This document shows, in pieces, positions 44 to 62,825 of a stretch of DNA of 64,000 nt. The stretch covers positions 2,641 to 66,640 of the forward strand of contig CAZCUC010000004.1 in assembly GCA_964502225.1 (NCBI GenBank). The letters run 5' to 3'. The position numbers and the translations under genes are program-made. This stretch comes from an uncultured Pseudomonadales bacterium (GTDB taxonomy: Bacteria; Patescibacteriota; Microgenomatia; UBA1400; UBA12108). The number at the start of each line of letters is the position of its first letter. The first letter of the stretch is position 1. Below the pieces are notes generated by a model that worked only from the letters and a program-made list of their open reading frames with translations, was not told the origin of the DNA and made no database searches.

Positions 44-1501
44 TCATATGTCGTCTAACTTTTTCTTATAGGCTATTATAGCGTCTTTTGGCTGGACGTC
101 AAGGTTGGGGGAGAAAAAGATCCCACACTCCTTGCCGGCCTCGACTAGTTTAACCTCTTCTTTACCTATCCTGATACTGCGAACTTTGGCATTTTTGACT
201 ACATCACCTCTGACCAAATGGATGGTATCCCCTACCTCGAATCTACCTGAGGTGATCGAGGATCCCGCAATGTGGTCACCGTTGATATCAAATACTTTGA
301 GAATGGTGGCTGTACCCAGCTGATCTTCGTCGATACTAGGCTCCATGAGTTTGAGGACTTTTTTCTCGACATACTCGAGTATTTCGTAGATAATTTTGTG
401 GTTTTTGATGACGACATTTTCGGTTTCGGCCAGCTTGGTAACAGAAGAGTTGACGCGAACGTTAAACCCTAAAATGATGGAGCTAGTGGTAGAGGCGAGG
501 AGAACATCGCTCTCAGTGATATCACCAGTACCCGAGCTCACGAGGTAAACATCGGGAGTAAAGCTACCCTTGATAGCTTCAAGCGAGCCAGCTGTGTCAG
601 CTTTGACAATGATATTGAGTCTTTTAAGACTAGGGTCGATCACCGGAGCAGGAATATTTTCGAGTGTATTGCCAGAGATGTTATTCTCAAAAGTACCATG
701 CACGATGACCTCCCCTACCTGAGGGAGAGTCACATAGCCCAGGATCTGCACGGGCATGCCAGGAGTAGCTGATTTGATACTCTGACCTTGGTCATTGAAA
801 AAAGCACGTACTTTGCCACCCGCTGTTTCGCTCCTCACTACATCCCCGACCGTGAGAGTACCTACCTTGACGATGGCAGAGACCAGTGCTCCCTTTTTGG
901 GATCGAGTTTGGCTTCGATAATGGGGGCGGAGAGATCGAGCTCTGGTTGGTACGGGAGCTCCTCAAGCTCTGCTAGCAGGAGAATTGTCTCGAGGAGATT
1001 GTCGACTCCAGCGCCAGTTTTGCCAGAAATCAAGACAAAGGGAGTATTGCCGCCGTAACCCTCGACAAATACTTCGTGCTGGGTGAGCTCGGCTTTGACT
1101 ACCTCGACGTTGGCCCCTGGCAAGTCGATTTTGTTGATCGCAACTACGTAGGGTACTCCAGCAGATTTGATGTGCTTGATGGATTCGATAGTTTGAGGTT
1201 TGACACTATCGTCTCCAGCCACCACGAGGACCACAACATCTGCAATACTCGCACCACGAGAGCGCATTTTGGAGAAAGCGGCGTGACCAGGAGTATCGAT
1301 AAAGGTAAGTTTTTTGCCGTGGAACTCTGCTTGGTAGGCACCGATAGATTGGGTAATACCTCCAGCCTCGCGGTCGGCAATGTGAGCCTGGCGGATATAG
1401 TCGAGGAGAGTGGTTTTACCGTGGTCTACATGGCCGAGAATGGCTACGATTGGTTGTCTAGTTAACTTTGTTTGAGTAGTATCTTGATTCGCTTTTTTCA
1501 T
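44..1501 (-). CDS. infB: translation initiation factor IF-2 (short form, G domain onward)
   Basis: GTPase motifs AILGHVDHGKTTLLD, DTPGH, NKID; C-terminal IF-2 beta-barrel; likely ATG at 1499-1501 (the track TTG extension MFM is not needed). Confidence 0.9.
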   Translation of the reverse strand: MKKANQDTTQTKLTRQPIVAILGHVDHGKTTLLDYIRQAHIADREAGGITQSIGAYQAEFHGKKLTFIDTPGHAAFSKMRSRGASIADVVVLVVAGDDSVKPQTIESIKHIKSAGVPYVVAINKIDLPGANVEVVKAELTQHEVFVEGYGGNTPFVLISGKTGAGVDNLLETILLLAELEELPYQPELDLSAPIIEAKLDPKKGALVSAIVKVGTLTVGDVVRSETAGGKVRAFFNDQGQSIKSATPGMPVQILGYVTLPQVGEVIVHGTFENNISGNTLENIPAPVIDPSLKRLNIIVKADTAGSLEAIKGSFTPDVYLVSSGTGDITESDVLLASTTSSIILGFNVRVNSSVTKLAETENVVIKNHKIIYEILEYVEKKVLKLMEPSIDEDQLGTATILKVFDINGDHIAGSSITSGRFEVGDTIHLVRGDVVKNAKVRSIRIGKEEVKLVEAGKECGIFFSPNLDVQPKDAIIAYKKKLDDI

Positions 1502-1519
1502 AAACAAACCTTTCCAGGT

Positions 1520-1569
1520 GATTTATGATTTATGATTCATGAATCTAGATTCTTAAATCTTAAATCAAG
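1520..1569. repeat. heptamer tandem-array element, copy a (TGATTTA units in both orientations, hairpin-forming) in the nusA-infB spacer
   Basis: gatttatgatttatgattcatgaatctagattcttaaatcttaaatcaag; the right half is the reverse complement of (A/T)GATTTA units. Confidence 0.6.
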
Positions 1570-13419: not shown

Positions 13420-13911
13420 TTAATTTGATGCGGGAGGATGATCATCCGCCCCTACGGGATCGCCATTACCAACAACAACTCGAGCGGTGCGCAACACTCG
13501 GTCGTGCAGGCGGTAGCCGGGACGGATAACTTTGACGACTTTGTCTTTCTCTCCCTCGCCCATTTCCTGACATTCCATAGAGGCAGGATCGTAGAGACCA
13601 TCAGTTTTGACTTGGGTTACCCCCTCTTCAACCAAGAGTTTGTCAAAGGAGCCCAGAATCATGGTAAGGCTTTGGTCTTTGAGCTGAGTGCTCGCCATAG
13701 CGAGGTGATCGCGGATGTCTAGGAGTTTGGTGAGGAGATCCGCTTTGGCAAATTTGACGACAGCAGAGCTCTGGTCGGCAAAGCGACGCTCGAGGTTGGC
13801 GTAGTCGGCGAGGGCACGGGCGAGACTAGATTCTAGGAGAGAGATGCGAGATTCTAGAGGGGAGGATTGAGGAGCTAGGGTTGGGTCAGTTTTGGGTTGA
13901 TTCTTTTTCAT
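13420..13911 (-). CDS. grpE: nucleotide exchange factor GrpE
   Basis: GrpE coiled-coil plus C-terminal beta domain; position between hrcA and dnaK. Confidence 0.85.
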
Positions 13912-13914
13912 AAT

Positions 13915-14646
13915 TTAGTTCCAGCTAGCGGATATTTCGTCGATAAGACTAGACATGTGGCGGAGCATGGGCATGACGTAGGGATAGTTGAGACGAGCAG
14001 GACCGATCACGCCAATATGACCGGTTTGGCCGCCGGCGGAGTAGTCTAGGTAGGCCATGGCGCAAGGATAGAGGTACTCGTTGCCGAACTCGTCGCCGAG
14101 TACGATATGAAAAGGCTGGACGTCTTCGATACGGGCAAAAATACCCTCGAGCTGTTTGTAGGATTCGACCATTTGTAGGACTTGGCGGGTGACATCGATG
14201 TCAAAAAACTCGGGGAGCGATAAAAGATTGGAGTAACCGGCGGAGTAAACACTGCCGTCGCTAGAAGTGGCAAAGGCGATATTGCCGGTTTTTTCGGAGA
14301 GAACCCGAGTGGCTTCACGCAAAAGCTGATCTAGTTCGGAGCGGTGATCCCAGATACGCTCCTTGACGGCCACCTCTTCGGTGACAGAGAGATCTTCTTC
14401 GTGCATGAGCTCGGAGACATAGAGCTTGAGGGCGATTGGGGTGGGGATGCGGCCGGCGCTGGTGTGTGGCTGTTTAAGATACCCTAAATCTTCGAGCCGG
14501 ACCATCTCGTTGCGGATGGTAGCGGGGCTTACTCCCAGGTTAAATTTCTTGTCCAGGGTATCGGAGCCGATTGGCTCACCGGTTGAGGTATACTCCTCGA
14601 CGACGGCCTTGATGATTTGGATTTGGCGCGGGCTTAAAGGTTTCAT
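13915..14646 (-). CDS. hrcA: heat-inducible transcriptional repressor HrcA (short)
   Basis: N-terminal wHTH (SPRQIQIIKAVVEEY...IGS); start moved to MKPLSPRQ (ATG 14644-14646); CIRCE immediately upstream. Confidence 0.8.
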   Translation of the reverse strand: MKPLSPRQIQIIKAVVEEYTSTGEPIGSDTLDKKFNLGVSPATIRNEMVRLEDLGYLKQPHTSAGRIPTPIALKLYVSELMHEEDLSVTEEVAVKERIWDHRSELDQLLREATRVLSEKTGNIAFATSSDGSVYSAGYSNLLSLPEFFDIDVTRQVLQMVESYKQLEGIFARIEDVQPFHIVLGDEFGNEYLYPCAMAYLDYSAGGQTGHIGVIGPARLNYPYVMPMLRHMSSLIDEISASWN

Positions 14647-14648
14647 AG

Positions 14649-14675
14649 TTAGCACTATGATAACGAGAGTGCTAG
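14649..14675. promoter_or_regulatory. CIRCE operator (TTAGCACTa-N9-GAGTGCTAg) upstream of hrcA-grpE-dnaK
   Basis: 8/9 plus 8/9 match to the TTAGCACTC-N9-GAGTGCTAA consensus with exact 9-nt spacing. Confidence 0.8.
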
Positions 14676-14695
14676 CTAGTGTCAAGTACCCCAAA

Positions 14696-16567
14696 TTAGA
14701 TCTTGAGGATTTCGGTGAAGGCTTCCTGGGGGACGGAGACGGAGCCAAGTTGTTTCATTTTCTTTTTCCCCTTCTTTTGCTTGTCGAGGAGTTTGCGGTT
14801 GCGAGTCATGTCGCCACCGTGGAGCTTGGCGGTTACGTCTTTGCGGAAGGCTTTAACCGTCGATCTAGCGATAATCTTGCCGCCGATGGCGGCCTGGATA
14901 GCTACTTCGATTAGAGACCTGGGGATGACCTCGGCTAGCTTGTCTACGAGCACGCGCGCACGCGATTCGGCGGAGTGGCGAGGTGAGACAAAAGACAAGG
15001 CCTCGGCAGGCTCACCGTTTAACAAAATATCTACTTTGGCGGCATCAACCTCGGAGTATCCTGCGTGGTCGTATTGTACGGAAGCATACCCTGAGGAGAC
15101 GGATTTGAGCCGGTCATAGAAATTGGTGATTAGCTCGGATAGTGGCATGAGATAGTTGAGGCGGACCCGGCCGGCCACGTACTGCATATCGACAAACTCG
15201 GCCCTTTTCCCCTGGGTGAGCTCCATAATCCCACCCACATATTGTTCTGGGGTATAGATGGTTAAAGTAACCATAGGTTCCTCGATATTCTGGATCTGGT
15301 CGGGACTGGGCCAGTCGGCGGGAGAGGAAATCTCTACGAAATCTTCGGGCGAAGACAGGGCTTCGCCCCTACGCATATGCATACGGTATGGGACAGAGGG
15401 CGCGGTATTAACCACAGACACCTCAAACTCGCGACTCAAACGCTCGGTGACAATCTCTGCGTGCAAAATACCCAGGAATCCGACGCGAAAACCGTGGCCG
15501 AGGGCGGGACTAGAGGCGGCGTGGTAGGTGAGAGAAGCGTCGTTTAAGGCCAGCTTGCCCAGGGCATCCACCAAGTTGCGATAATCTCCAGCATCGATTG
15601 GGTAGAGGTCCATAAAGACCATGGCTTGGGGTCGCTGATATCCCTCAACTGCAGTGACATCGGAACCCACGGTTGTGAGAGTATCGCCGATCGTGACGGC
15701 ACGGATATCTTTGTGACCGGTCGCGATATAGCCCACCTCCCCTACTTCGACATGATCAGAGGCACGCATGTCGGGAGAGAAGAAACCGATTTCTAGAGGA
15801 GAGAGCTTTTCTTTGGTAGCCAAAAGCATGAGGTTGTCCCGATTCTTCTTGTTGATCTCACCGGAAATGACTTTGACAAAAGCAATCACACCTTTGTGGG
15901 TGTCAAAAGTAGAGTTGAAGACGAGGGCTCGAAGAGGTTCAAAGTTCCGATCACTCGCCGAGGTATCTGCAAGGATCGGAACTGAGGGAGCGGGGACACG
16001 GGCGACGATGGCATCGAGGAGCTCGGTCACGCCGATGCCGGATTTGGCGGAGCCAAACAAAATATCTTCGGTTTTAAACCCAAGCGTTTCAACTAGCTCA
16101 GTCGCCACTCGCTCGGGCTCGGCGGCGGCCATATCGATTTTGTTGATGAAAGGAATAACAGTGAGCCCAGCTTCTTTGGCTTTGTCAAAATTGGCAATGG
16201 TCTGCGCCTGGATACCCTTGGTAGCGTCCACCACGAGGACCGCACCTTCGCAGGCGTGGAGGGCACGACTCACTTCGTAGCTAAAGTCGACGTGTCCGGG
16301 AGTGTCAATCAAGTTCAGAATAAATTCTGAACTTGATTGAGAAGATAGGAGAGAGATGTTAGATGCTAGGGGGGTGTAGAGCATGCGGACAGGGGCGAGC
16401 TTGATGGTGATCCCACGCTCGACCTCGATGGGGTTGCTATCCATGAGGCGGACCGTGCCACCCTTGGCGACTGTGCCGGTAGCCTCTAATAGACGGTCGG
16501 TCAAAGTAGTTTTGCCGTGGTCGATGTGGGCGATAATGCTAAAATTTCTAATTTGTTGAATACTCAT
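14696..16567 (-). CDS. lepA: elongation factor 4 (LepA)
   Basis: GTPase motifs IIAHIDHGKTTL, DTPGHVDF, NKID; LepA C-terminal domain; carries a ~10-aa insertion encoded by a palindrome. Confidence 0.95.
   Translation of the reverse strand: MSIQQIRNFSIIAHIDHGKTTLTDRLLEATGTVAKGGTVRLMDSNPIEVERGITIKLAPVRMLYTPLASNISLLSSQSSSEFILNLIDTPGHVDFSYEVSRALHACEGAVLVVDATKGIQAQTIANFDKAKEAGLTVIPFINKIDMAAAEPERVATELVETLGFKTEDILFGSAKSGIGVTELLDAIVARVPAPSVPILADTSASDRNFEPLRALVFNSTFDTHKGVIAFVKVISGEINKKNRDNLMLLATKEKLSPLEIGFFSPDMRASDHVEVGEVGYIATGHKDIRAVTIGDTLTTVGSDVTAVEGYQRPQAMVFMDLYPIDAGDYRNLVDALGKLALNDASLTYHAASSPALGHGFRVGFLGILHAEIVTERLSREFEVSVVNTAPSVPYRMHMRRGEALSSPEDFVEISSPADWPSPDQIQNIEEPMVTLTIYTPEQYVGGIMELTQGKRAEFVDMQYVAGRVRLNYLMPLSELITNFYDRLKSVSSGYASVQYDHAGYSEVDAAKVDILLNGEPAEALSFVSPRHSAESRARVLVDKLAEVIPRSLIEVAIQAAIGGKIIARSTVKAFRKDVTAKLHGGDMTRNRKLLDKQKKGKKKMKQLGSVSVPQEAFTEILKI
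16305..16340. repeat. perfect 36-bp palindrome (16-bp arms, loop taaa) inside lepA coding sequence
   Basis: tcaatcaagttcagaa taaa ttctgaacttgattga; encodes SSQSSSEFILNLI, which is extra relative to the usual LepA spacing before the DTPGH motif. Confidence 0.75.
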
Positions 16568-16679
16568 ATATCCTGTAGGGTCTGACCCGGTCTCCTTATT
16601 TGTAATATGAGTCGACTAAACATCTTGGCGTTCCGCCAGGATTTCCTTAGCAGGTCAGACCCTGTGATTATACCAGAGG

Positions 16680-18332
16680 TTAGACGGTAGGTTCGGAGGT
16701 TTCGAGGGTTTCGTCGGACTCGGAGAGGGCTTTGTGCCAGCCGCCGATCTTTTCGGCTAGGCGCACAAAAATGCCGAGCTCTTTGATGTTGAAGAGGTAT
16801 GACAAGGCAATATAGACACCCATACCAATCAATCCAACAGTTACAGTCAGGAGAATGAGAGGAATCGTGCGAGTGGTGTCGAAGATCAAGTTGTCAAAGA
16901 CACGCAGTGGTACCCAAAGCGCTAGTGAAGTGATCAAAGTAATCCCGAGCATTTTGATAGTGGGGTACAAGAGATGGGTGCCGGCAAAGTTGGCCAGACT
17001 ATAGAGCAAACTGGTTAAAACGACTGTCTCGATGAGGGAAGCGACAGTAATAGCAAAAGCCATGCCGATGACGCCGGATTTTAAGACAAACAAGAAATAG
17101 TAGCTGAGTCCAATGTTGATGGTGGTCGAGAGTAAGTTGGTGATAAAGGGAGTACTTGTGTTGTGCAGGGAGTAAAAAACTCGAACCAAGATGTGAGTCA
17201 GCGACCTGGCGGCAATCGAGACAGCCAAAATCGCAACTAGTTTGCCGGTTAAAACTGTTTCTGCCCAAGGGAACGAATCGGCTCCGTAGGCCAAGCGGAC
17301 AAGGGGGATGCGCAGAATTAGCACAATTACACTAGAGGGAAGGGCTAGATAGAGCATCTCAAGAATCGTGTTGTTGACCATGGTAGCCAGAGAGTGGAGA
17401 TCGTTTTTGGAGGTTTCTTTGGTAAAGAACGGGAGTGAAGCCTGGCCAATGGGGATGCCGATCAAGCGAACGGGCAAGTTGGCGAGTTGCTGGGCGATCG
17501 AGATAATTGTTACTGTTCCCACAGAGAGCCAACTAGAAAAAGTAACAATGGCCGTTGCCTCGATCTGGACGAGCGAGAGAGTCAAAACACGAGGGAGCAT
17601 GAGCAGACTCATTTCTTTGACTGCGCCGTGACTCTTGTCCCAGACGAATCGATACTTAAAACCAAGTTTGCGAGCGAGAGGGAGCTGGGCTAAGAGGTGG
17701 AGACAAGCTCCAATCACAACACCAACTGCGGCGCCATAAATACCGAGAGTTTTGCCAAAAGCCAAGATGCCGATAATAATCCCGACGTTGTAGAGGACTG
17801 GAGAGAGAGCTGGAATCAAGAACCGTTTATGAGTTTGGATCACGCCAGTTAAAAACGATGAAAAACCAAAGAAAAGCTGGGCAAAGGCCATAATCCGCGT
17901 GAGGCCAACCATGAGTCTCAGCTGATCCTGCGAAAATCCACCAGCAATCAAACGACTCAAGGGATAGGCAAAAATAATAACCAGGATGGTCAAGCTAATC
18001 ATCACAATCATGACGGAGTTGATCATGGAGGAGGCAATGAGATTGCTTTCGTCTTTTTTGCCGAGGTAGCGACTAAAGACTGGAATAAAAGCAGAGGATA
18101 AAGCGCCAACAATAATGATTTGAAAAATCATGTCTGGAATCCGAAAAGCGGCCCAGAATACATCTACCACAGCTTTGTCGGCGTAAAAATACTGAATAAG
18201 TAACCTGGTGCGAACTAGTCCCAAAAGGGCCGAAACCAGTGTGGCTCCCATGATAATAGTGGCGGCAGAGAGGATAGAGGAACTTTCTTTTTCAAAGAGA
18301 TTTTTGCCGTTTTGGACTAAGCGTTTGAACAT
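16680..18332 (-). CDS. murJ: lipid II flippase MurJ/MviN
   Basis: about 14 TM segments, MviN family features; start moved to MFKRLVQ (ATG 18330-18332). Confidence 0.8.
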   Translation of the reverse strand: MFKRLVQNGKNLFEKESSSILSAATIIMGATLVSALLGLVRTRLLIQYFYADKAVVDVFWAAFRIPDMIFQIIIVGALSSAFIPVFSRYLGKKDESNLIASSMINSVMIVMISLTILVIIFAYPLSRLIAGGFSQDQLRLMVGLTRIMAFAQLFFGFSSFLTGVIQTHKRFLIPALSPVLYNVGIIIGILAFGKTLGIYGAAVGVVIGACLHLLAQLPLARKLGFKYRFVWDKSHGAVKEMSLLMLPRVLTLSLVQIEATAIVTFSSWLSVGTVTIISIAQQLANLPVRLIGIPIGQASLPFFTKETSKNDLHSLATMVNNTILEMLYLALPSSVIVLILRIPLVRLAYGADSFPWAETVLTGKLVAILAVSIAARSLTHILVRVFYSLHNTSTPFITNLLSTTINIGLSYYFLFVLKSGVIGMAFAITVASLIETVVLTSLLYSLANFAGTHLLYPTIKMLGITLITSLALWVPLRVFDNLIFDTTRTIPLILLTVTVGLIGMGVYIALSYLFNIKELGIFVRLAEKIGGWHKALSESDETLETSEPTV

Positions 18333-33504: not shown

Positions 33505-34497
33505 ATGATTTCAAAGACTGAATGGAATAAACAAGTAGATCACCCACTACAGGCTTACGAGTGGGGGGAGTTTAGGCAGGCTACTGGAGTAAAGGTAGTG
33601 AGAGAGAGTGGGATGCAGATTACGATCCACAAGATTCCGCACACCCCCTGGAATGTAGGATATGCACCAAAGACGGGGATGATAACGGAGAAACAAAGTA
33701 GCGTCCTCAGTAAAGTCGCAAAAGAGAATAATTGTATTTTTATCAAAGTGGAGCCGAAGATAGAAATGCAAGATTCTAGGAGAGAGATGTTGGATTTTAG
33801 GAAATGGGGATTTGTCGCAGGGCGACCACTGTTTACCAAATTTAACTTTGTGCTGGATGTGACTCCGAGTGAAGAGGTACTGCTCTCGAGCTTTAAACAG
33901 AAAACTAGGTACAACATTAAAGTGGCAGAGAAACGAGGAGTAACAGTAGAAATTGATAATAGTGAGGCCGCATTTGAGCGATACTTACAACTGACCGAAG
34001 AGACCACTAAACGACAAGGTTTTTATGCTCACTCGCGTGAGTACCACAAAAGGATGTGGGAGGTGCTAAATAATTCTCCAATCTCAAATTCTCAAATTCT
34101 CAAATTGAGCGCAAATCTATTGGTTGCGAGATATCAGGGCGAGATAATTACAACCTGGGTGCTGTTTAGCTTTGGCGACACGCTCTACTACCCCTACGGT
34201 GCTAGTACCAGAGAACATCGAGAGGTAATGGCGAACAATCTAGTAATGTGGGAGGCGATCAAGTTGGCCAAGAAATGGGGACTGCGATATCTGGATATGT
34301 GGGGAGCACTAGGGCCTGAACCAGATAGTCACGATCCGTGGTACGGATTCCATAACTTTAAATCGGGATACGGGGCACGACATGTCGAGTACGTAGGTAC
34401 ATGGGATTACGTGGCCATGCCACTACTGTACAAACTTTACAGAGTGGGTGAGAAGTTGAGATGGTGGTGGCTACGAACCAAAAAAGCTCGTGACTAG
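33505..34497 (+). CDS. FemAB-family peptidoglycan interpeptide-bridge peptidyltransferase-like protein
   Basis: FemABX-like twin GNAT-fold layout, TRYNIKVAEKRGV-type motif. Confidence 0.55.
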   Translation: MISKTEWNKQVDHPLQAYEWGEFRQATGVKVVRESGMQITIHKIPHTPWNVGYAPKTGMITEKQSSVLSKVAKENNCIFIKVEPKIEMQDSRREMLDFRKWGFVAGRPLFTKFNFVLDVTPSEEVLLSSFKQKTRYNIKVAEKRGVTVEIDNSEAAFERYLQLTEETTKRQGFYAHSREYHKRMWEVLNNSPISNSQILKLSANLLVARYQGEIITTWVLFSFGDTLYYPYGASTREHREVMANNLVMWEAIKLAKKWGLRYLDMWGALGPEPDSHDPWYGFHNFKSGYGARHVEYVGTWDYVAMPLLYKLYRVGEKLRWWWLRTKKARD

Positions 34498-34524
34498 AGG
34501 CAGGATATAGATTAGTCACGAGCT
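34485..34524. terminator. inverted repeat (12-bp arms, 16-nt loop) between convergent femAB-like and histone-like genes
   Basis: agctcgtgacta ... tagtcacgagct. Confidence 0.3.
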
Positions 34525-34531
34525 ACTTCGG

Positions 34532-34717
34532 TTATTTGCGTTTTTTAGCAACTTTTTTGACGGTTTTCTTGACAACTTTCTTTACAGGTTTCTTAGCGAC
34601 TTTTTTAACTACTTTTTTAACAGTCTTTTTGACAGCTTTTTTAGGAGCAGCTTTCTTGGCTGGAGCTTTCTTTACTGATTTCTTGGACAACAATTTTTTG
34701 AATAGTTTTTTTAGCAT
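34532..34717 (-). CDS. Lys/Ala-rich histone H1-like DNA-binding protein (61 aa)
   Basis: (KKxVKK)n repeats; start at MLKKLFKK with an AGGTGA SD. Confidence 0.55.
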   Translation of the reverse strand: MLKKLFKKLLSKKSVKKAPAKKAAPKKAVKKTVKKVVKKVAKKPVKKVVKKTVKKVAKKRK

Positions 34718-35138: not shown

Positions 35139-38100
35139 TTATTTAACGGGCAGACCGTTTTGATAACAATGGTCTTTGAAATAGCAGTTTTCGCATTTTT
35201 TAAGGTCAGTGGTGCGGGGGAACTTTAGTGAGCGGATCGAATCCATGGAGAAATGAATAGTCTTTTTGAGTTTTTCGATTTGCTCATCATTCACCTGGAA
35301 GCTGCGCTCACCGGATTTGCCTTTGAGATTTGGCTCTTCGACGAAGTCGAGCATACCCTCCCCGAATTTGTAATTGAGACTCTTATCGGAATCGATGAGG
35401 AGTTTGTAGAACTCTAGCTGGCGGAGTAATTCCCCGTCACTATCCTGGGTCGTGCCTTCTATTTGCCCCATGGTTTTGGGCTGGCCGGTTTTGTAGTCCA
35501 CTACTTTCACCGTGCGACTTGCTTGGTCAGACCACTCTAACCGGTCGAGCTTACCAGTCAACTGAATGTCGCCCAAGTTGGCTCGCAAATTTTTCTCGGT
35601 GGCGAGTGGGAGACTGAAGTGATCCTCATTCAGTTTAAAGTAGGCAGTTAAGACCTCTTCACCTTTTTTCAAATAAACAGTTAAATCTTGCTTGGTAATA
35701 ACTGAGGCGGTGAGGGCAGAGCGGAACTGGGAGAGTAAGTATTCGAGATTTGGGGGAACGCCATCCTCTTTGAATTTCAAATAGAAATGCTCTAAGGCAC
35801 TATGGATCGCCGTGCCAAAAGTTAAGTGGGCTTTTTTGGCGTGGGGAACTTTTAACAATTTATCGAGCTTAAATTTGTAGGCACAGTATAGATAGGAGTT
35901 AAGTGAAGTGGCGGCCAGTTTGAAGTCATCCACGATGTCCTGTAAGTAGGCTTTTTCACTCTCTAGCGTGTCTTGCACGGCCTGACTGCCGAGAATCGTT
36001 TCGATGTGTTTGTGGGCGGTTTCTTCTACTTGGGTCACATCAATTGCTGTAAGGAGATCGCCATTTAATTCTTCTAGGAACATGGTGGGACTAGCAATAG
36101 TCGCTTTGCCGTAGCTAGAGTAGGTGTTGGCACGAGTGATCGTCAGATTAGATTTGGCACGGGTCATGGCCACATAGAAGAGCCTACGCTCGTCTTCGTT
36201 TTTCTCTTTGTCGGAGGGCTTCACATTTTTTAGTAAAGACCCAGGGAGAGTGATGAGCTCGGCTTTTTTGTTGTTGCCCCAGTTGCCATCGATGGCCTTA
36301 TAAATATAAACATGCTCCCATTCCAAACCCTTGCTTTTGTGGGCGGTGGTTAAAGTAATGGCGTCACGACTGACACCGTAGCTCGATTCTTCGATGCGGA
36401 TATGATTCTCTTCCATAATCTCCAAATTTTCGATGAAGCCTTTGAGATCCAAGTTGTGGTCAGAGCGATTCATACGCTTAACCTCGTCGAACAAGGTATT
36501 CATTTTGGCTAGGCGGTGAGTGGCACCACGTACCTGTTCTTTGTAGACTGTTCCTTCGTCTAAGATCCAGTTGAGATAGCCGGATTTATTTAAGACGTCT
36601 TCAAAAAATTCCACAAAGGTTTTGTTGGCGTCTAGGCTCTGCCAGTTTTGGAGCTTGGTAAAGGTCGCGTCGATTTGCTCGCGTGAGGATAGATCTAGAG
36701 TGGAGAGCGAGTCGGGATTGCCCAGCACATCAAATAGGGTAAGGCGAGCAGACCCTGCTTCCCTCGCAATTTTTAGGACATCGAGAGGGTTGATGCCAAA
36801 AATATCGTAGTGGAGAATGGTAAACAAATCTTCGTCTTCTAACTTCTCTCGCATTTCATAAATGACTTTGAGGATTTTGAGAAAGTTGCGCACCGTAGGG
36901 TCTGATAAGACATTGGCTCCGCCCTGCACGGTGTAGTCGATGCCGTACTTGGAGAGCGTATCGGCAATCACCGTAGCCTCGAAGTTTTTGTGGTAGATCA
37001 CGGCGATGTCGCTAGGGGCAACACCCGTCTTTACTTTCTGCTTGATATTCTCGGCAATAAAAATAGCCTCAGCAGTGTTGCCACTGAGCTGTGCGGTGCC
37101 GATTTTGTCCCCTGCCCCAATTTGAGAAATGAGGTGGGGATCGATACCTGGCACCACATCGTTAATCCGTAGATTGTTGTTTACGATCAGTGAGTCGGCG
37201 ACGTCTAAAATATTTTGAGTACTACGATAATTTTGTTTGAGGGTGATAACGGTAGCACCTGGGTACGCTTGTACGAATGAAAGTTGATTTTCGATAGAGG
37301 CACCCTGGAAACGCATAATACTTTGATCGGGGTCACCGGTCACAAATACGTTGGCCTCAGTGCCCCAGTATTTGGCAAGGAGTAGCATGAGCTCGTTTTG
37401 GGCAGAGTTGGTGTCCTGATACTCGTCGACTAAAATATACAAATATTTTTCTTGGCAGGAAAATAAGAGTTCGTCGTTTGATTTAAAGGCGTCCACCACA
37501 CTCGTGATCATGTCCTCGAAATCAAAGCTCCCCTCTTCTTTTAATACTACTTGGTATTTGCGAAATAGCTGGTTGAGCTCTTGGTTCTTGGCGAGATTGC
37601 GCTGACGTTTGGCTATTTCGGTTTTCTTTAATTCGCTCACGTCATCGGATTTGAGAAAATGATCTTCTTGGATAAGTAGCTCGTCGAACTCATCGGGATC
37701 GACTCCCTCTCTTTTTAAATCACTGATAGCACTAAGGATTGCAGAGGCATAATGGTAGGGCGCACCAGTTGGACGCAAAACCTTGAGATTTGTTTTGTCT
37801 ATTAGTCCGCGAACGAGTTTGAGTCGCTCTAAATCGGATAAAGGTTCACTCGCGGGGTTGATTGTAAAGACGTCGGGATTGTCTTTGATCACGCCCTGAC
37901 AAAAGGCGTGGAAAGTAGAGATGTTGGCGTAATAGGCTTCGGAGCCAATCATCTGTGTGAGGCGTGATTTCATCGCACGTGCGCCTGACTCGGTGTAGGT
38001 AAGGGCGAGGATGGAGCTGGCTGGCGTGTCTGTTTTACGGATAATGTTGGCGATACGGAGTGCCAAGGTTTGGGTCTTGCCGGTACCCGGACCGGCGACC

Positions 38101-38195
38101 AGCATGACGGGACCCTCGATCGTGTCGACCGCTAAGCGTTGCTCGGCGTTTAACTTCTTGTACGCTAAATCAAATTCTTTGGTGGTTTTGGTCAT
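35139..38195 (-). CDS. UvrD-family SF1 helicase fused to a C-terminal PD-(D/E)xK nuclease with a Cas4/AddB-like Fe-S Cys cluster
   Basis: helicase motifs AGPGTGKT, DEYQDTN, TGDPDQSIMRFQGA, TAHKSKGLEW; C-terminus YCAY...CENCYFKDHC (C...CxxCx5C). Confidence 0.8.
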   Translation of the reverse strand: MTKTTKEFDLAYKKLNAEQRLAVDTIEGPVMLVAGPGTGKTQTLALRIANIIRKTDTPASSILALTYTESGARAMKSRLTQMIGSEAYYANISTFHAFCQGVIKDNPDVFTINPASEPLSDLERLKLVRGLIDKTNLKVLRPTGAPYHYASAILSAISDLKREGVDPDEFDELLIQEDHFLKSDDVSELKKTEIAKRQRNLAKNQELNQLFRKYQVVLKEEGSFDFEDMITSVVDAFKSNDELLFSCQEKYLYILVDEYQDTNSAQNELMLLLAKYWGTEANVFVTGDPDQSIMRFQGASIENQLSFVQAYPGATVITLKQNYRSTQNILDVADSLIVNNNLRINDVVPGIDPHLISQIGAGDKIGTAQLSGNTAEAIFIAENIKQKVKTGVAPSDIAVIYHKNFEATVIADTLSKYGIDYTVQGGANVLSDPTVRNFLKILKVIYEMREKLEDEDLFTILHYDIFGINPLDVLKIAREAGSARLTLFDVLGNPDSLSTLDLSSREQIDATFTKLQNWQSLDANKTFVEFFEDVLNKSGYLNWILDEGTVYKEQVRGATHRLAKMNTLFDEVKRMNRSDHNLDLKGFIENLEIMEENHIRIEESSYGVSRDAITLTTAHKSKGLEWEHVYIYKAIDGNWGNNKKAELITLPGSLLKNVKPSDKEKNEDERRLFYVAMTRAKSNLTITRANTYSSYGKATIASPTMFLEELNGDLLTAIDVTQVEETAHKHIETILGSQAVQDTLESEKAYLQDIVDDFKLAATSLNSYLYCAYKFKLDKLLKVPHAKKAHLTFGTAIHSALEHFYLKFKEDGVPPNLEYLLSQFRSALTASVITKQDLTVYLKKGEEVLTAYFKLNEDHFSLPLATEKNLRANLGDIQLTGKLDRLEWSDQASRTVKVVDYKTGQPKTMGQIEGTTQDSDGELLRQLEFYKLLIDSDKSLNYKFGEGMLDFVEEPNLKGKSGERSFQVNDEQIEKLKKTIHFSMDSIRSLKFPRTTDLKKCENCYFKDHCYQNGLPVK

Positions 38196-38204
38196 AAAGT
38201 ATAT

Positions 38205-38230
38205 GGTTCGATGGTTCGAACCATCGAACC
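38205..38230. repeat. GGTTCGATGGTTCGAACCATCGAACC perfect 26-bp palindrome, copy 2 (between the rmuC stop and the helicase-nuclease start)
   Basis: 13-bp arms, zero loop. Confidence 0.7.
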
Positions 38231-38232
38231 GT

Positions 38233-39189
38233 TTAATCTTCTAATAATTTGTCGGAGGGGGTGTCGCCGGTGAGCTGGCGGGTGGAATCCAATTTTTGGC
38301 CGATTTGGTTAAACTCGGTCTGGACCTGCGAGAACTTGTTGTAGGCATTGGTTAGGTGGGAACCCAAGGTGACCATAGAGTCGCTAGTTTTGCCAAAATC
38401 TTTTTGGATCCCGCGCATGAGCTTGAAAACCTCTTTGGCTTTGGCCTCGATCTTTTTACCTTCGAATGACAAGAGAATGGTTTGGAGGGCGGCGTAAAGA
38501 GTATTGGGTGAGACAGGATAGACGCGGGACTCACGGGCAAACTCCATGAGCTCCTCTGCGCTTGCCACCTCGTAGAAAACAGACTCGGAAGGAATATACA
38601 TGAGCGCAAAGTCGAGCGTATTTTCTTCCGGCAAAATATATTTTTTGGAGATGGCAGTGACGTGGGTTTTGATATCACGAACGAATGTACGACGGAGAGA
38701 GTCGATTTCTGTTTTGTTTTGGGTGGACATCATTTTTTGGAAATTTTCCATCGGGAACTTGGAATCGATCGGGAGTAGACCCGCGTCCGTTTTAATAATC
38801 GCGTCTACAATACTACCGGACTTGAACGCGTGTTGGAGTTCGAAGGAGCTGACCGGGAACATTTGACTAATTAAATCTTTGAGCACCATCTCGCCAATGT
38901 TGCCGCGGAGCTTGGGTGATTGGAGGTAGTCCTGCAGGGATTTCATGGAGCGACTAATCTCGGAGAAGGCGCCGGCCTCACGCTTCAAATCCCCAATGAC
39001 TTCGGTCGCACGAATGAGACGATCATTAATGTCCTTGGTGTTGCTGGCCAGGCTCGAATTGATAGTGTCTTTGGTCAAATCCACGGAACTTTTGAGTGAT
39101 TTCAAATCATCTTTGAAGAATTTGAGCACCAAGAGCATGAATCCGAGTAAGAAAAAAACAATAATGAGGGTTAAAGTAGTGACTTCCAT
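38233..39189 (-). CDS. rmuC: DNA recombination protein RmuC
   Basis: N-terminal TM and coiled-coil plus RmuC nuclease-like C-terminal domain; start MEVTTLTLI is preferred. Confidence 0.75.
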   Translation of the reverse strand: MEVTTLTLIIVFFLLGFMLLVLKFFKDDLKSLKSSVDLTKDTINSSLASNTKDINDRLIRATEVIGDLKREAGAFSEISRSMKSLQDYLQSPKLRGNIGEMVLKDLISQMFPVSSFELQHAFKSGSIVDAIIKTDAGLLPIDSKFPMENFQKMMSTQNKTEIDSLRRTFVRDIKTHVTAISKKYILPEENTLDFALMYIPSESVFYEVASAEELMEFARESRVYPVSPNTLYAALQTILLSFEGKKIEAKAKEVFKLMRGIQKDFGKTSDSMVTLGSHLTNAYNKFSQVQTEFNQIGQKLDSTRQLTGDTPSDKLLED

Positions 39190-49623: not shown

Positions 49624-49698
49624 GGCGCAATGGCGAAGTGGTAACGCTGGAGTCTGCAAAACTCCCATGCGAGGGTCCGATTCCCTCTTGCGCCTCCA
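49624..49698 (+). tRNA. tRNA-Cys (anticodon GCA)
   Basis: manual cloverleaf: acceptor ggcgcaa/ttgcgcc, anticodon stem ggagt/actcc with loop ctGCAaa, T-arm gaggg/ccctc, U73 discriminator typical of tRNA-Cys, encoded CCA; TATAAT 12 nt upstream. Confidence 0.8.
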
Positions 49699-58743: not shown

Positions 58744-58774
58744 GGGAGGCTAGATACAAGGAGATAGATATTAG

Positions 58775-61417: not shown

Positions 61418-61960
61418 TTAGATGTTGGCTTTTTGGATGATCTTGGTGGTGGAAATATCTGGATTCCAGTCGTGGACAATGACCAAGCGACCGCCGTATT
61501 TTTCGGTTAGTAGTTGTTTGTTGTTGAGATAGGAGGTGTGGGAACTCACGGCATAGATATCGGGGCGGACGGCTGACATGAGGGACTCGTAGGCTTCGAG
61601 GTGATCAAAATTGGAAGAAAGAGAAATGACAAAATCAACTATGTGTCCATTAGGGCCAGGCCTCGCAGGTAAACTGCTCGGACCTGCAAGGCCTGGCCCT
61701 GCAGGGATATCGAGATCCAATAGATGCTGACAACGTACTGGCTGGGTTTCGACGGGTCTCCCCTCACCTTTAATTTTGCGGGCTCGCTCATCGGACTCGA
61801 CCCCGACGATCAAAACATCCCCTGATGCCTTGGCTTTTTGCAGGAAATTCACGTGCTCAGCGTGAAGGAGATCAAAGAAGCCAGTGGCGAGAACGATAGT
61901 TTTACCCTCAGCGTGGAGCTGGACGCAGATGGGAGTAATAGTTTTGATAGTGTGAAACAT
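61418..61960 (-). CDS. cytidylyltransferase-like nucleotidyltransferase (TagD/RfaE domain II-like) with an in-frame Pro/Gly-rich insertion
   Basis: GxFDLLHxxH signature (TGFFDLLHAEH); 21-aa insert IPAGPGLAGPSSLPARPGPNG encoded by a GC-rich inverted repeat. Confidence 0.6.
   Translation of the reverse strand: MFHTIKTITPICVQLHAEGKTIVLATGFFDLLHAEHVNFLQKAKASGDVLIVGVESDERARKIKGEGRPVETQPVRCQHLLDLDIPAGPGLAGPSSLPARPGPNGHIVDFVISLSSNFDHLEAYESLMSAVRPDIYAVSSHTSYLNNKQLLTEKYGGRLVIVHDWNPDISTTKIIQKANI
61652..61700. repeat. 19-bp inverted repeat (1 mismatch) with an 11-nt spacer, in-frame inside the cytidylyltransferase gene
   Basis: agggccaggcctcgcaggt aaactgctcgg acctgcaaggcctggccct; also a nested palindrome ccctgcaggg. 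Confidence 0.65.
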
Positions 61961-61967
61961 GAAGATA

Positions 61968-62825
61968 TTATACCTTTGGGGCGGGATCCTTGGGGTGGAA
62001 GAAGGCAGAATTGAGAGTGATGTATTCGCGAGTGATTTTTGGGCGCATGTAGGAGAGTTGAAGGCGGTATGACAGGGATTCTATAACCATGAATACTCTC
62101 CTCCCAGCTGCCGCTGGACCCTTCTCGACTTGCAGTCGGGAATTCCTGTTGAGGAGAGTCCTCTTCGGGAGCGGGAAATTGGGGAGATAAGAAGAAATCC
62201 AGGAGTTGGCAAAGAGGAGAGCTGAGCGAGTATTGTGGGGGTCGTGCAGTGGGATGGCCTGAATAAGCTCGTAAGCAGTGTAGAGAGATCTGCGATCAGG
62301 TGGTAGAAGATAGGAGGAAGGAGAGAGGTAGAGGTTGAGACATAGTTTTCCTGTGTTGTGCTTGGAGTGAGGGGTGCGGCGTAAACCGAGTATCGAAGTA
62401 TAGAGAGTGAGGAGGAGGCGCGTAGTCCAGAGTCGACCTGGGCGCGTAATGATCATAAAGTCGATATCTGAACTCTGACTAGAGTTGTGCATCGCGAGCG
62501 AACCAGTCAAGTAAATTGCATAAACCCCGGGGATACGCGCGAGTCGCCCTGATAGAGATTTGGCACGGACAAGATGAGGAGAAGATAGTTGTGTGCGTTT
62601 GTGCCGGCGAGCAACCAGCGAGGACCTACCTGGGAGATGATAGTAGTCACCAGTCCGGAAGATGGTGTCCTTTTTTAGCATAGATTTTAAAGTTCCGAAC
62701 ACTCGTTCTAGAGAACAAGGTTCGGAACTATATAGCCGCAGGTGGATTTCTTTGAGAGTCAAGGGGAAGCCAAAGTGATCGGAATATTTGAGAGTCCGGA
62801 GAATAGCGGTAGCGAGTGAGGTCAT
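61968..62825 (-). CDS. hypothetical protein with a Pol-beta-type nucleotidyltransferase-like motif
   Basis: GS...DIDFMII motif (GSLAMHNSSQSSDIDFMI). Confidence 0.4.
   Translation of the reverse strand: MTSLATAILRTLKYSDHFGFPLTLKEIHLRLYSSEPCSLERVFGTLKSMLKKDTIFRTGDYYHLPGRSSLVARRHKRTQLSSPHLVRAKSLSGRLARIPGVYAIYLTGSLAMHNSSQSSDIDFMIITRPGRLWTTRLLLTLYTSILGLRRTPHSKHNTGKLCLNLYLSPSSYLLPPDRRSLYTAYELIQAIPLHDPHNTRSALLFANSWISSYLPNFPLPKRTLLNRNSRLQVEKGPAAAGRRVFMVIESLSYRLQLSYMRPKITREYITLNSAFFHPKDPAPKV

What the first reader, a model, noticed from the sequence alone, without database searches (positions are those of the whole stretch)
16305..16340. Perfect 36-bp palindrome inserted in-frame in lepA
The palindrome tcaatcaagttcagaa-taaa-ttctgaacttgattga has 16-bp arms with no mismatch. 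It lies within one of the most conserved bacterial genes and encodes an extra ~10 residues (SSQSSSEFIL) just before the DTPGH switch motif, relative to the usual LepA spacing. A perfect stem implies recent origin or selection for the secondary structure.
Basis: seen in the sequence. Interest (0 to 1): 0.6.

Follow-up and report, generated by a model that had tools for sequence, protein, structure and literature searches.

The report
Self-copying coding palindrome in lepA
A perfect 36-base DNA palindrome inside the translation-factor gene lepA is real: one half is the gene's own conserved code and the other is a mirror-image copy that adds a harmless protein loop, most likely made and kept perfect by a known DNA-copying slip rather than by a foreign element or a proven function.

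Summary
Window 16305-16340 is a perfect inverted repeat with 17-nt arms and a 2-nt centre, in frame in lepA (14696..16567, minus strand) of a Microgenomates/Woesebacteria-like bacterium. Simulated sequences reach only 8-11 nt. It is not an inserted palindrome. The 3' arm is the native code for the invariant strand ILNLID before DTPGH. Only the 5' arm (QSSSE) lies in the lineage-specific 15-residue loop extension. At least 11 independent assemblies carry a palindrome on the same symmetry axis. Seven of 16 stem pairs show changes on both sides: silent changes in ILNLID codons are mirrored by amino-acid changes in the loop. G-U intermediates are almost absent, and stems are either 12 nt or longer, or absent. 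Right-arm Leu codons whose mirror would be a stop never occur. The insert is dispensable and patchy: two strains 99.4% identical differ by exactly 36 nt, carried on a recombination tract. The arm is not a dispersed repeat, and no Rfam family, promoter or terminator matches. Best reading (about 0.6): fold-back template switching copied the neighbouring code into a permissive surface loop and keeps the arms identical. This is a bacterial counterpart of the nematomorph mitochondrial 'coding palindromes'. A selected hairpin is not excluded.

The parts
14696..16567 (-). lepA (elongation factor 4) coding sequence, 623 aa
   Evidence: ORF. The homologues are LepA/EF4 proteins with Pfam GTP_EFTU, EFG_C and LepA_C domains. 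It matches solved LepA structures at E = 1e-50 to 1e-57.
16305..16340 (.). Perfect 36-nt palindrome: 17-nt arms and a 2-nt centre. As a hairpin this is a 16-bp stem with a 4-nt loop.
16305..16321 (-). 3' arm on the mRNA strand: ATT CTG AAC TTG ATT GA. This is the native code for Ile83-Leu-Asn-Leu-Ile-Asp88, the beta3 strand leading into the DTPGH (G3) motif.
   Evidence: My codon-by-codon reading. LNLIDTPGH is conserved in the 118 homologues whose loop could be parsed, except one with LDLI. It is also conserved in the 80-odd related loci, apart from a few Phe or Tyr in place of the first Leu, whatever the loop length. The insert-free allele L166 has ATT CTA AAT TTG ATT GAC at this place.
16322..16323 (-). 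Centre of symmetry: 2nd and 3rd bases of the Phe82 codon (TTT). The axis lies after the 2nd base of the Tyr/Phe codon that precedes ILNLID.
   Evidence: All 15 palindromic relatives share the same axis. Codon position 1 pairs with position 1 and position 2 with position 3. This is 'phase 1' in the sense of PMC6649704.
16324..16340 (-). 5' arm: T CAA TCA AGT TCA GAA T, an exact reverse-complement copy of the 3' arm. It is translated as (Ser76)-Gln-Ser-Ser-Ser-Glu81-(Phe82) in the enlarged beta2-beta3 loop.
   Evidence: The residues encoded here change together with silent changes in the 3' arm. AlphaFold2 places residues 74-81 in a coil; mean pLDDT for residues 71-80 is 62.
16322..16375 (-). 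Lineage-specific loop segment, codons 65-82 (TPLASNISLLSSQSSSEF). It replaces the 3 residues (QDH or QDY) of the closest insert-free relatives, a net gain of 45 nt.
   Evidence: Loop comparison across 120 homologues and 88 loci. DNA-level comparison of a filled and an empty allele for the sister 28-residue type.
16346..16375 (-). Outer, non-palindromic half of the insert (TPLASNISLL). Its origin is unresolved. It is 25/30 identical, in the same reading frame, to a segment of grpE 2.5 kb downstream.
13834..13863 (-). 5' segment of grpE ([10 protein letters not shown]), the possible template or relative of the outer half of the lepA insert.
   Evidence: This GrpE segment is native; LESRIAILES is present in the distant relative L172.

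Best explanation
The palindrome is a 'coding palindrome' produced inside the gene. Replication fold-back (template switching) at a small natural palindrome, the TAT|ATT junction of Tyr/Phe-Ile, copied the adjacent conserved beta3-strand code (ILNLID) in reverse complement into the neighbouring permissive beta2-beta3 surface loop of the LepA GTPase domain. Since then, a mismatch between the arms has tended to be erased by the same template-switch process. Conversions that would change ILNLID are removed by selection on the protein. The surviving changes are therefore silent changes in the 3' arm that get copied onto the 5' arm, and the loop residues (Ser/Asn/Leu/Asp, Glu/Lys) simply follow the silent sites of the conserved strand. 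The extra peptide is a tolerated hydrophilic passenger. The insert as a whole is dispensable, is gained and lost, and moves between related strains by homologous recombination. Shown here: the anatomy, the conserved axis, the paired changes, the all-or-nothing distribution, the avoidance of stop codons, dispensability, the recombination tract, and the lack of dispersal. Inferred: template switching is the generating and maintaining process, and the structure has no required function.
For: (1) The 3' arm is native code and the 5' arm is its exact mirror.
(2) The symmetry axis is the same in 15 palindromic alleles, whose loops range from 26 to 56 residues.
(3) On 14 distinct sequences, 7 of 16 stem pairs have changes on both sides (11 cells), 0 of 500 shuffles reach that, and slid controls give 0-2 such pairs. 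There is only one G-U pair within the 12 core pairs (L084) and two U-G cells at the poorly paired outer end. Examples: AAC->AAT with AGT->AAT; CTG->TTG with GAA->AAG; TTG->TTA with TCA->TTA; TTG->CTG with AAT->GAT; ATT->CAG with GAA TAT->ACT TAC.
(4) The distribution is two-state. The perfect run about the axis is 12-17 nt in 15 sequences and 7 nt or less in 153. PMC6649704 attributes the same pattern to active arm conversion.
(5) Leu codons CTT and CTC, whose mirror would be TAA or TGA in the 5' arm, are absent from 13 palindromic alleles. In 137 non-palindromic alleles they make up 38% and 29% of the two Leu positions. The decaying palindrome L118 has a CTT exactly at one of its two mismatches, and an uncompensated CTA at the other.
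(6) The structure is dispensable. L165 and L166 are 99.4% identical over 4.1 kb and differ by exactly 36 nt. Nearly all their other differences lie in lepA nt 1-857, which indicates a recombination tract. Divergence between other relatives is likewise mosaic along the gene.
(7) Loop types are patchy among sequences 88-99% identical in protein.
(8) The arm occurs only at this site in 848 kb of window plus related loci.
(9) No Rfam family, promoter or terminator matches.
(10) The insert maps to the beta2-beta3 loop, which is shorter in solved LepA structures, and is modelled as a lower-confidence loop.
(11) Published work shows that template switching creates perfect stems, produces multi-base compensatory changes in single events, and preserves perfect inverted repeats in bacteria and in coding DNA: PMC8794818, PMC5941160, PMC8604942.
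Against: Template switching was not observed directly; it is inferred from the pattern.
Paired changes in a stem are also the classic sign of a selected RNA structure. With 14 sequences, the scarcity of G-U intermediates is suggestive but not decisive.
Palindromes on the same axis occur in lineages whose LepA is only 47-55% identical to each other and to the window (L092, L126, L118). This requires either repeated independent origin at one spot, very long maintenance, or transfer.
Some loop motifs (NLGF[RE]NS) are shared between those distant lineages and remain unexplained.
The outer half of the insert shows no local template in the gene flanks. Its only relative is in grpE, so the whole 45-nt gain is not explained by a single fold-back.
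CTG and TTG are over-represented in right arms beyond what stop avoidance requires; this could reflect shared ancestry or a sequence preference.
Confidence: 0.6

Rival explanations
1. The hairpin is a selected nucleic-acid structure. It could be an mRNA stem that modulates lepA translation, stability or processing (for example a ribosome pause before the G3 motif, an RNase III site or a thermosensor upstream of hrcA-grpE-dnaK). Alternatively it could be a DNA palindrome bound by a dimeric protein.
For: The stem is strong and highly non-random. Seven of 16 pairs co-vary while the axis stays fixed. The stem is kept in alleles with very different loops and in distant lineages. lepA lies directly upstream of hrcA-grpE-dnaK.
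Against: The stem is absent from most relatives, including the closest ones (16- and 20-residue loops fold at about -3 kcal/mol) and a strain 99.4% identical to a carrier. Arm length varies from 12 to 17 nt with no fixed outer boundary. G-U pairs are almost absent. No Rfam family, promoter or terminator matches. There is no slippery site upstream of the stem (my reading). Sequence conservation of the core is already explained by the coding constraint on ILNLID together with stop avoidance.
Confidence: 0.2
2. The insert is a small mobile palindromic element, like a Rickettsia palindromic element or a MITE, that lands in frame in permissive loops. Its end is complementary to the target site, and it spreads among LepA genes by transposition or by homing-like recombination.
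For: Distribution is patchy among near-identical LepA sequences, and there is a recombination tract that carries the insert. Similar loop motifs occur in lineages only about 52-55% identical. The outer half of the insert has three relatives elsewhere in the window, against 0.00 expected. Other CPR (candidate phyla radiation) LepA genes do carry in-frame copies of dispersed hairpin repeats, some flanked by 9-14-nt direct repeats.
Against: Half of the palindrome is native host code. The arm is found nowhere else in the 64-kb window or in 848 kb of related DNA. There is no target-site duplication and there are no terminal repeats of its own. The window relatives of the outer half are a native GrpE segment, the antisense strand of another gene, and a ribosome-binding site, so they are not clearly copies of an element. 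Transfer in the one resolved case was by an ~860-nt homologous tract, not by precise insertion.
Confidence: 0.13
3. The loop peptide (SxSE[YF]) is selected at the protein level, and the DNA palindrome is incidental.
For: The motif [SN]S[EK][YF]ILNLID recurs in many insert-bearing LepA proteins.
Against: Loop residues change exactly as dictated by silent changes in the opposite arm: Ser<->Asn, Ser<->Leu, Asn<->Asp, Glu<->Lys. Protein-level selection cannot produce that. The loop is dispensable and is modelled as a low-confidence coil.
Confidence: 0.03
4. It is an assembly or amplification chimera.
For: Inverted junctions are a known artefact of whole-genome amplification (my own knowledge, not tested here).
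Against: The palindrome is present in at least 11 independent assemblies from four sources, it preserves the reading frame, and it shows evolutionary variation.
Confidence: 0.01

Closest known systems
[quoted passage not shown] 2019, PMC6649704)
   Same: These are perfect inverted repeats inside translated genes. Identity is all-or-nothing, either perfect or absent. They are gained and lost among relatives. The phase-1 codon arrangement is favoured. Hydrophilic insertions accommodate the mirror of an indispensable hydrophobic segment. The authors propose arm conversion or template switching and a possibly parasitic character.
   Different: This case is a bacterial chromosome (CPR/Microgenomates) rather than an animal mitochondrion. 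It involves one hotspot in one housekeeping gene rather than dozens across a genome. The arms are 12-17 nt rather than up to 284 bp. One arm is an invariant GTPase strand and the other is an inserted loop, rather than two conserved regions.
Template-switch (quasipalindrome) mutation and correction of inverted repeats (Ripley model; PMC8794818, PMC5941160, PMC8604942, PMC7202029)
   Same: The mechanism creates perfect stems in one event, produces multi-base 'compensatory' changes without intermediates, homogenises arms, keeps perfect inverted repeats conserved in bacteria, and causes clustered amino-acid replacements and parallel evolution in coding DNA.
   Different: Those studies describe the process genome-wide or in RNA genes. 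This case is a single long-lived example in which one arm is locked by protein function, so the conversions that persist run one way. The process itself was not observed here.
Rickettsia palindromic elements and prokaryotic MITEs inserted in frame (Ogata et al. 2000, from my own knowledge; mentioned in PMC6649704)
   Same: These are palindromic DNA inserted in frame in conserved genes, translated as extra surface segments and tolerated by the protein.
   Different: They are 100-150 bp multi-copy dispersed elements in which both arms are foreign, and they decay with time. In this case the arm is single-copy, half is native, and it stays perfect.
Lineage-specific length variation of the beta2-beta3 hairpin loop in translational GTPases
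   Same: The insertion sits in the loop between the switch-I strand (GITIK...) and the G3 motif DTPGH. This loop is 20-21 residues long in 64 of 72 LepA genes parsed from diverse phyla and 16 to 66 residues in Microgenomates.
   Different: Ordinary loop indels carry no nucleic-acid symmetry with the adjacent conserved strand.

Membership tests
Coding palindrome / inverted repeat maintained by template switching | Perfect or near-perfect inverted repeat lying wholly inside an intact, conserved reading frame | tested here: met
   The ORF is intact in all relatives.
Coding palindrome / inverted repeat maintained by template switching | All-or-nothing identity: arms are perfect or the repeat is absent, with few intermediates | tested here: met
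   Run lengths about the axis are 12-17 nt in 15 sequences and 7 nt or less in 153. Only 3 of 14 distinct palindromes carry a single internal mismatch, and one (L118) is decaying.
Coding palindrome / inverted repeat maintained by template switching | Arms evolve in concert, with changes on both sides and without G-U or mismatch intermediates | tested here: met
   Seven of 16 pairs have changes on both sides. One G-U lies within the 12 core pairs. No shuffle of 500 reaches the observed value.
Coding palindrome / inverted repeat maintained by template switching | Dynamic gain and loss among close relatives | tested here: met
Coding palindrome / inverted repeat maintained by template switching | Direct demonstration that template switching generates or corrects the repeat | not testable with these tools
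   This needs mutation-accumulation or reporter assays, or dense population sequencing.
Dispersed palindromic element (RPE / MITE / REP) | Multiple copies dispersed in the genome | tested here: not met
   The arm has no other copy in the window or in 848 kb of related loci. The outer half has three weak relatives whose nature is unclear. Only 64 kb of this genome was available.
Dispersed palindromic element (RPE / MITE / REP) | Both repeat arms belong to the inserted DNA, with a flanking target-site duplication | tested here: not met
   The 3' arm is native ILNLID code. No direct repeat flanks the insert.
Structured cis-regulatory RNA | Match to a curated RNA family | tested here: not met
   Rfam gave nothing at gathering threshold or at E <= 1.
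Structured cis-regulatory RNA | Structure conserved in orthologues, with covariation that includes wobble pairs | tested here: inconclusive
   There is strong Watson-Crick covariation among carriers. However, the stem is absent from most orthologues, including near-identical ones.
Intrinsic terminator or sigma-70 promoter | GC-rich stem followed by a U-tract, or -35/-10 hexamers | tested here: not met
   No sites were found in 15900-16800 on either strand.
LepA / EF4 | GTP_EFTU, EFG_C and LepA_C domains with G motifs (AHIDHGK, DTPGH, NKID) | tested here: met

The most novel reading that the evidence does not exclude
The LepA beta2-beta3 loop of CPR bacteria may be a hotspot where hairpin-forming DNA is actively propagated in frame. 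The hairpins include locally generated palindromes that copy the invariant ILNLID code, and tiny dispersed hairpin elements with target duplications. On this reading the palindrome behaves as a conversion-driven, quasi-selfish or functional structure that has persisted or recurred across lineages with only about 50% LepA identity. This could reflect a peculiarity of CPR replication or repair, or an mRNA- or DNA-level role tied to the lepA-hrcA-grpE-dnaK locus.
Probability: 0.2. Interest if true: 0.7.

Novelty: new member of a known kind. Interest (0 to 1): 0.5.

Why it matters
This is a very clean natural example of a nucleic-acid symmetry writing protein sequence. The amino acids of an inserted loop are set by the silent third positions of an invariant GTPase strand.

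It shows that stem covariation, normally read as proof of a functional RNA, can arise in a dispensable coding insert. This is a caution for RNA-structure discovery in coding regions.

It extends 'coding palindromes' from an odd animal mitochondrion to bacterial chromosomes. It also flags a universal marker gene (lepA) of CPR bacteria as hypervariable and recombining at one loop, which matters for phylogenetics and indel-signature work.

If the maintenance turns out to be active or functional, it offers a tractable 36-nt system to measure template-switch conversion or coding-hairpin effects.

Tried and rejected
- The exact-protein look-up of the window LepA found nothing.
These later served as an outgroup.
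- No Rfam family, promoter or terminator matched.
- The palindrome does not extend beyond 17 nt: the flanks do not pair (and my reading).
- I considered whether the whole insert is a single inverted copy of the downstream 36-45 nt. In the 28-residue type only about 24 nt align, and only with indels. This is not claimed.
- I considered whether L084 keeps a direct-inverted-direct triplication (VLNLAS upstream). Only 8 of 15 nt match, so I rejected it.
- A k-mer test for local templating of the outer half was negative for the window clade. It was positive only in L134, L147, L152 and L154.
- The dispersed-element reading of the arm is rejected.
- On the antisense strand of the insert, the AGGAG..ATG sequence opens only 7- and 13-codon frames (my reading), so an antisense gene is rejected.
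- HrcA/CIRCE operator: the sequence does not resemble the CIRCE consensus TTAGCACTC-N9-GAGTGCTAA (from my own knowledge). I did not pursue it.
- The low divergence of the loop between the window and L082 is not palindrome-specific conservation. It is part of a wider low-divergence tract, codons ~51-130.
Full report
OBSERVATION. Window 16305-16340 reads tcaatcaagttcagaa-taaa-ttctgaacttgattga. The repeat finder scores it as 17-nt arms, 100% complementary, with 2 nt between them. It is the only perfect inverted repeat of 14 nt or more in the 64 kb. The longest perfect inverted repeat with a spacer of 10 nt or less in 60 first-order Markov simulations of the window was 8-11 nt, against 17 observed. 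The strand folds at -23.8 kcal/mol as RNA (z = -6.0) and -15.8 kcal/mol as DNA (z = -7.2). The palindrome lies in frame in a 623-aa ORF on the minus strand, 14696..16567. That ORF is LepA/EF4 of a Microgenomates/Woesebacteria-like CPR (candidate phyla radiation) bacterium (source names and Pfam domains; solved LepA structures match at E = 1e-50 to 1e-57). The gene order is murJ - lepA - hrcA - grpE - dnaK, as in relatives.

ANATOMY. Read on the coding strand, the palindrome is (TC)T CAA TCA AGT TCA GAA TTT ATT CTG AAC TTG ATT GA(C), which translates as S76 Q S S S E F82 I83 L N L I D88. The 3' arm (16305-16321) is therefore the native code for ILNLID, the beta3 strand that leads into the G3 motif DTPGH. 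LNLIDTPGH is conserved in the 118 homologues whose loop could be parsed, with one exception (LDLI), and in the related loci apart from a few Phe or Tyr in place of the first Leu, whatever the loop length. Only the 5' arm (16324-16340), which encodes QSSSE, lies in the lineage-specific segment. Between GITIK and DTPGH the window protein has 31 residues. The closest relatives without an insert (93% aa identity elsewhere) have 16 (LAPVRMLYQDHILNLI). Solved LepA structures and 64 of 72 LepA genes parsed from other phyla have 20-21. The extra segment is codons 65-82 (TPLASNISLLSSQSSSEF), a net gain of 45 nt. AlphaFold2 models it as a short helix (residues 68-73) followed by a lower-confidence coil (74-81) between strands 60-64 and 82-86, which fits an enlarged surface hairpin loop.

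NOT AN ARTEFACT, NOT A DISPERSED ELEMENT. The identical palindrome is in an independent NCBI assembly (L081, 96% nt identity over the gene). A one-mismatch version is in an ENA assembly (L082, 86.6% nt identity). The arm has no other copy in the window. In 848 kb of window plus 172 related loci it occurs only at this lepA site. Rfam gives nothing at either threshold, and there is no promoter-like or terminator-like site.

RELATIVES. I obtained DNA for 88 Microgenomates/CPR lepA loci and 80 from other phyla. I measured base pairing about one fixed axis: after the 2nd base of the Tyr/Phe codon that precedes [I/Q]LNLID. The perfect run is 1-4 nt in 148 sequences, 5-7 nt in 5, and 12-17 nt in 15. 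This is a two-state distribution. The palindromic alleles have loops of 26, 28, 30, 31, 32, 49, 51 and 56 residues, and the outer sequences of these loops are unrelated to one another.

Within homologous insert types the arms change together.
- Window AGT/AAC versus L083 and L084 AAT/AAT.
- Window GAA/CTG versus L084 AAG/TTG.
- L165 TCA/TTG versus L167 TTA/TTA.
- L169 GAT/CTG.
- L171, where Ile is replaced by Gln (CAG TTA): ACT TAC and TTTAA.

On a 14-sequence gapless alignment, 7 of 16 stem pairs have changes on both sides (11 cells). No shuffle of 500 reaches this, and slid controls give 0-2 such pairs. Only one G-U pair occurs within the 12 core pairs, plus two U-G cells at the poorly paired outer end. 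The repeat is 'phase 1': codon position 1 pairs with position 1, and position 2 with position 3. Third-position silent changes in ILNLID therefore dictate second-position, amino-acid-changing differences in the loop (Ser/Asn, Ser/Leu, Asn/Asp, Glu/Lys). Selection on the loop peptide cannot produce this pattern.

A CODING CONFLICT THAT SHAPES THE PALINDROME. I enumerated all 1296 synonymous versions of the right arm. A Leu codon CTT or CTC at either Leu position puts TAA or TGA into the mirrored arm. Those codons make up 38% and 29% of the two Leu positions in 137 distinct non-palindromic alleles, and 0 of 13 in palindromic alleles. The one decaying palindrome (L118, 13 of 19 positions paired) has CTT exactly at one of its two mismatches and an uncompensated CTA at the other. 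This accounts for part of the convergent codon usage without invoking a sequence-specific function.

DISPENSABLE, PATCHY, RECOMBINING. Loop types are scattered on the LepA tree. P0006 (28 residues) and P0022 (16 residues) are 99.8% identical outside the loop. P0087 (32) and P0097 (16) are 97.5% identical. At the DNA level L165 and L166 are 99.4% identical over 4.1 kb. They differ by exactly 36 nt, AGTGACGCTGTGTCACTGCAATCAAATTCAGAATAT, inserted between CAC and ATT. This creates a 34-nt perfect palindrome. The empty allele has CTA where the filled allele has CTG. Thirty-six further substitutions lie in lepA nt 1-857, against about 6 in the other 3.5 kb, so the loop allele travelled on a homologous recombination tract. 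Divergence between the window and L081 or L082 is likewise mosaic. The near-identity of the loop between the window and L082 is part of a wider low-divergence tract, codons ~51-130, and is not palindrome-specific. Alleles without the insert have no stable structure here (-3.1 kcal/mol). Any function must therefore be accessory.

MECHANISM. The best-supported account is fold-back template switching. The native Tyr-Ile junction (TAT|ATT) is a 2-4-bp palindrome in most LepA genes; the baseline run is 2-3 nt, which gives a nucleus for the event. A nascent strand that folds back there copies the ILNLID code in reverse complement into the adjoining loop. Later switches erase mismatches. Conversions that would alter ILNLID are purged, so silent right-arm changes propagate to the left arm. 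Published work shows that template switching creates perfect stems, yields multi-base compensatory changes in one event, homogenises arms in coding DNA with parallel evolution, and keeps perfect inverted repeats conserved in bacteria (PMC8794818, PMC8604942, PMC5941160). The closest described phenomenon is the 'coding palindromes' of nematomorph mitochondria. They show the same all-or-nothing perfection, dynamic gain and loss, phase-1 preference and hydrophilic accommodating insertions, and their authors propose the same mechanism (PMC6649704). The anatomy and the evolutionary pattern are shown here. The process is inferred. I put this explanation at about 0.6.

RIVALS. A selected mRNA or DNA structure (0.2) is supported by the covariation and by persistence in lineages whose LepA is only 47-55% identical (L092, L126, L118). 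It is weakened by dispensability, variable arm length, the scarcity of G-U pairs and the absence of any recognisable signal. A mobile palindromic element (0.13) is suggested by the patchiness, by loop motifs shared between distant lineages (NLGF[RE]NS), by relatives of the outer half elsewhere in the window, and by true dispersed hairpin repeats in other CPR LepA genes. Against it, half of the palindrome is host code, the arm is single-copy, and there is no target duplication. Protein-level selection (0.03) and artefact (0.01) are effectively excluded.

UNRESOLVED. The outer half of the insert, ACCCCCCTAGCATCTAACATCTCTCTCCTA (TPLASNISLL), has no template in the gene flanks. It is 25/30 identical, in the same reading frame, to the native 5' region of grpE 2.5 kb downstream ([10 protein letters not shown]). 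It also resembles two other sites, where shuffles expect 0.00. It could be a second templated piece, a small motif, or a CT-rich coincidence. Whether the distant palindromes are independent origins at the same nucleus or ancient or transferred copies is also open.

VERDICT. The finding is a new bacterial member of a known kind: a coding palindrome or inverted repeat maintained by template switching. It has an unusually clear read-out, and moderate interest (0.5).

Noticed in passing
window 13834-13863, 33771-33800 and 58758-58781 (all read on the minus strand), compared with 16346-16375: The outer half of the lepA insert has three relatives in the window, where shuffles expect 0.00. The first is the 5' region of grpE (25/30 identical, same reading frame, PL[AE]S[NR]ISLL). 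The second is the antisense strand of a FemAB-like gene on the plus strand; it shares a 19-nt exact match, CATCTCTCTCCTAGAATCT, with grpE. The third is the reverse complement of the Shine-Dalgarno sequence plus ATG of the gene at 58775. Their meaning is unclear.
   Followed up: partly
L147 lepA beta2-beta3 loop (exact coordinates not recorded); L092 1977-1997; L107 3340-3358: The same ~21-nt GC-rich hairpin, CCTGCCTCGCCGGCAGGCAGG (peptide PASPAGR), sits in frame in LepA of three distant CPR lineages at two different loops. In L147 it is flanked by a 14-nt direct repeat (AATTCTCAATTCTC). In L092 it is flanked by a 9-nt direct repeat (TTAGTCAAA). This looks like a tiny mobile hairpin with a target-site duplication.
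   Followed up: partly
L153 loop and L164 3575-3640; L009 loop and L047 1206-1232; L146 loop: Other CPR LepA genes carry in-frame copies of dispersed hairpin repeats. One family encodes 'VIASEAKQ...ARND', another 'CHPERSEGS...QND', and another 'CHPELVSGS...KQVRHD'. Copies of the first two occur at other sites or in other genomes at 96% identity over 25-27 nt. L164 carries one at a second position in LepA, near residue 400.
   Followed up: partly
L134/L139, L092 and L126 lepA loops: Long loops in distant lineages contain further direct and inverted copies of the native ATTCTGAAT (ILN) unit. They also contain long-range perfect stems. In L092, AAAATCCGAAATTCGAA pairs with TTCGAATTTCGGATTTT 66 nt away. 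In L134, a 20-nt stem is built from tandem AATTCAGAAT units.
   Followed up: partly
L165 and L167 loops (the 28-residue type): The outer part of this insert carries its own perfect hairpin, but in a different register in each lineage: CAGTGAC-GCTGT-GTCACTG in L165 and CAGTGTCA-CAG-TGACACTG in L167. It looks as if stems are being re-made repeatedly.
   Followed up: no
lepA of the window compared with L081, L082, L165 and L166: Divergence along lepA is strongly mosaic. For example, the window and L081 are nearly identical over codons 1-400 and then differ at 14-21 positions per 30 codons around codons 420-470. This indicates frequent homologous recombination among these Microgenomates.
   Followed up: partly
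32-residue loops (L169, L171, P0082) compared with L092 and L126: The loop motif N-L-G-F-[RE]-N-S (AATTTRGGATTT...AATTC) is shared between lineages whose LepA is only about 52-55% identical. The cause could be transfer of the insert or convergence.
   Followed up: no
window 38200-38235: An 18-nt-arm, zero-spacer inverted repeat (TATATGGTTCGATGGTTC/GAACCATCGAACCGTTTA, 89%) lies at the 5' end of a 1033-aa minus-strand reading frame (35142..38240). It looks like an operator.
   Followed up: no
window 61652-61700, 34476-34533 and 1520-1567: Three other inverted repeats. One is a GC-rich 19-nt stem inside a stop-free minus-strand frame (61421..62080). The other two lie at gene ends: after the FemAB-like gene, and after an IF-2-like gene that ends at 47..1522. 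These two are probably terminators.
   Followed up: no
window 49624-49695: The only Rfam hit at gathering threshold in the window is a tRNA on the plus strand.
   Followed up: no
window 13915-14748: The hrcA ORF as listed starts at a TTG that overlaps the last 53 nt of lepA. The real start may be the internal Met (MKPLSPRQIQ...).
   Followed up: no
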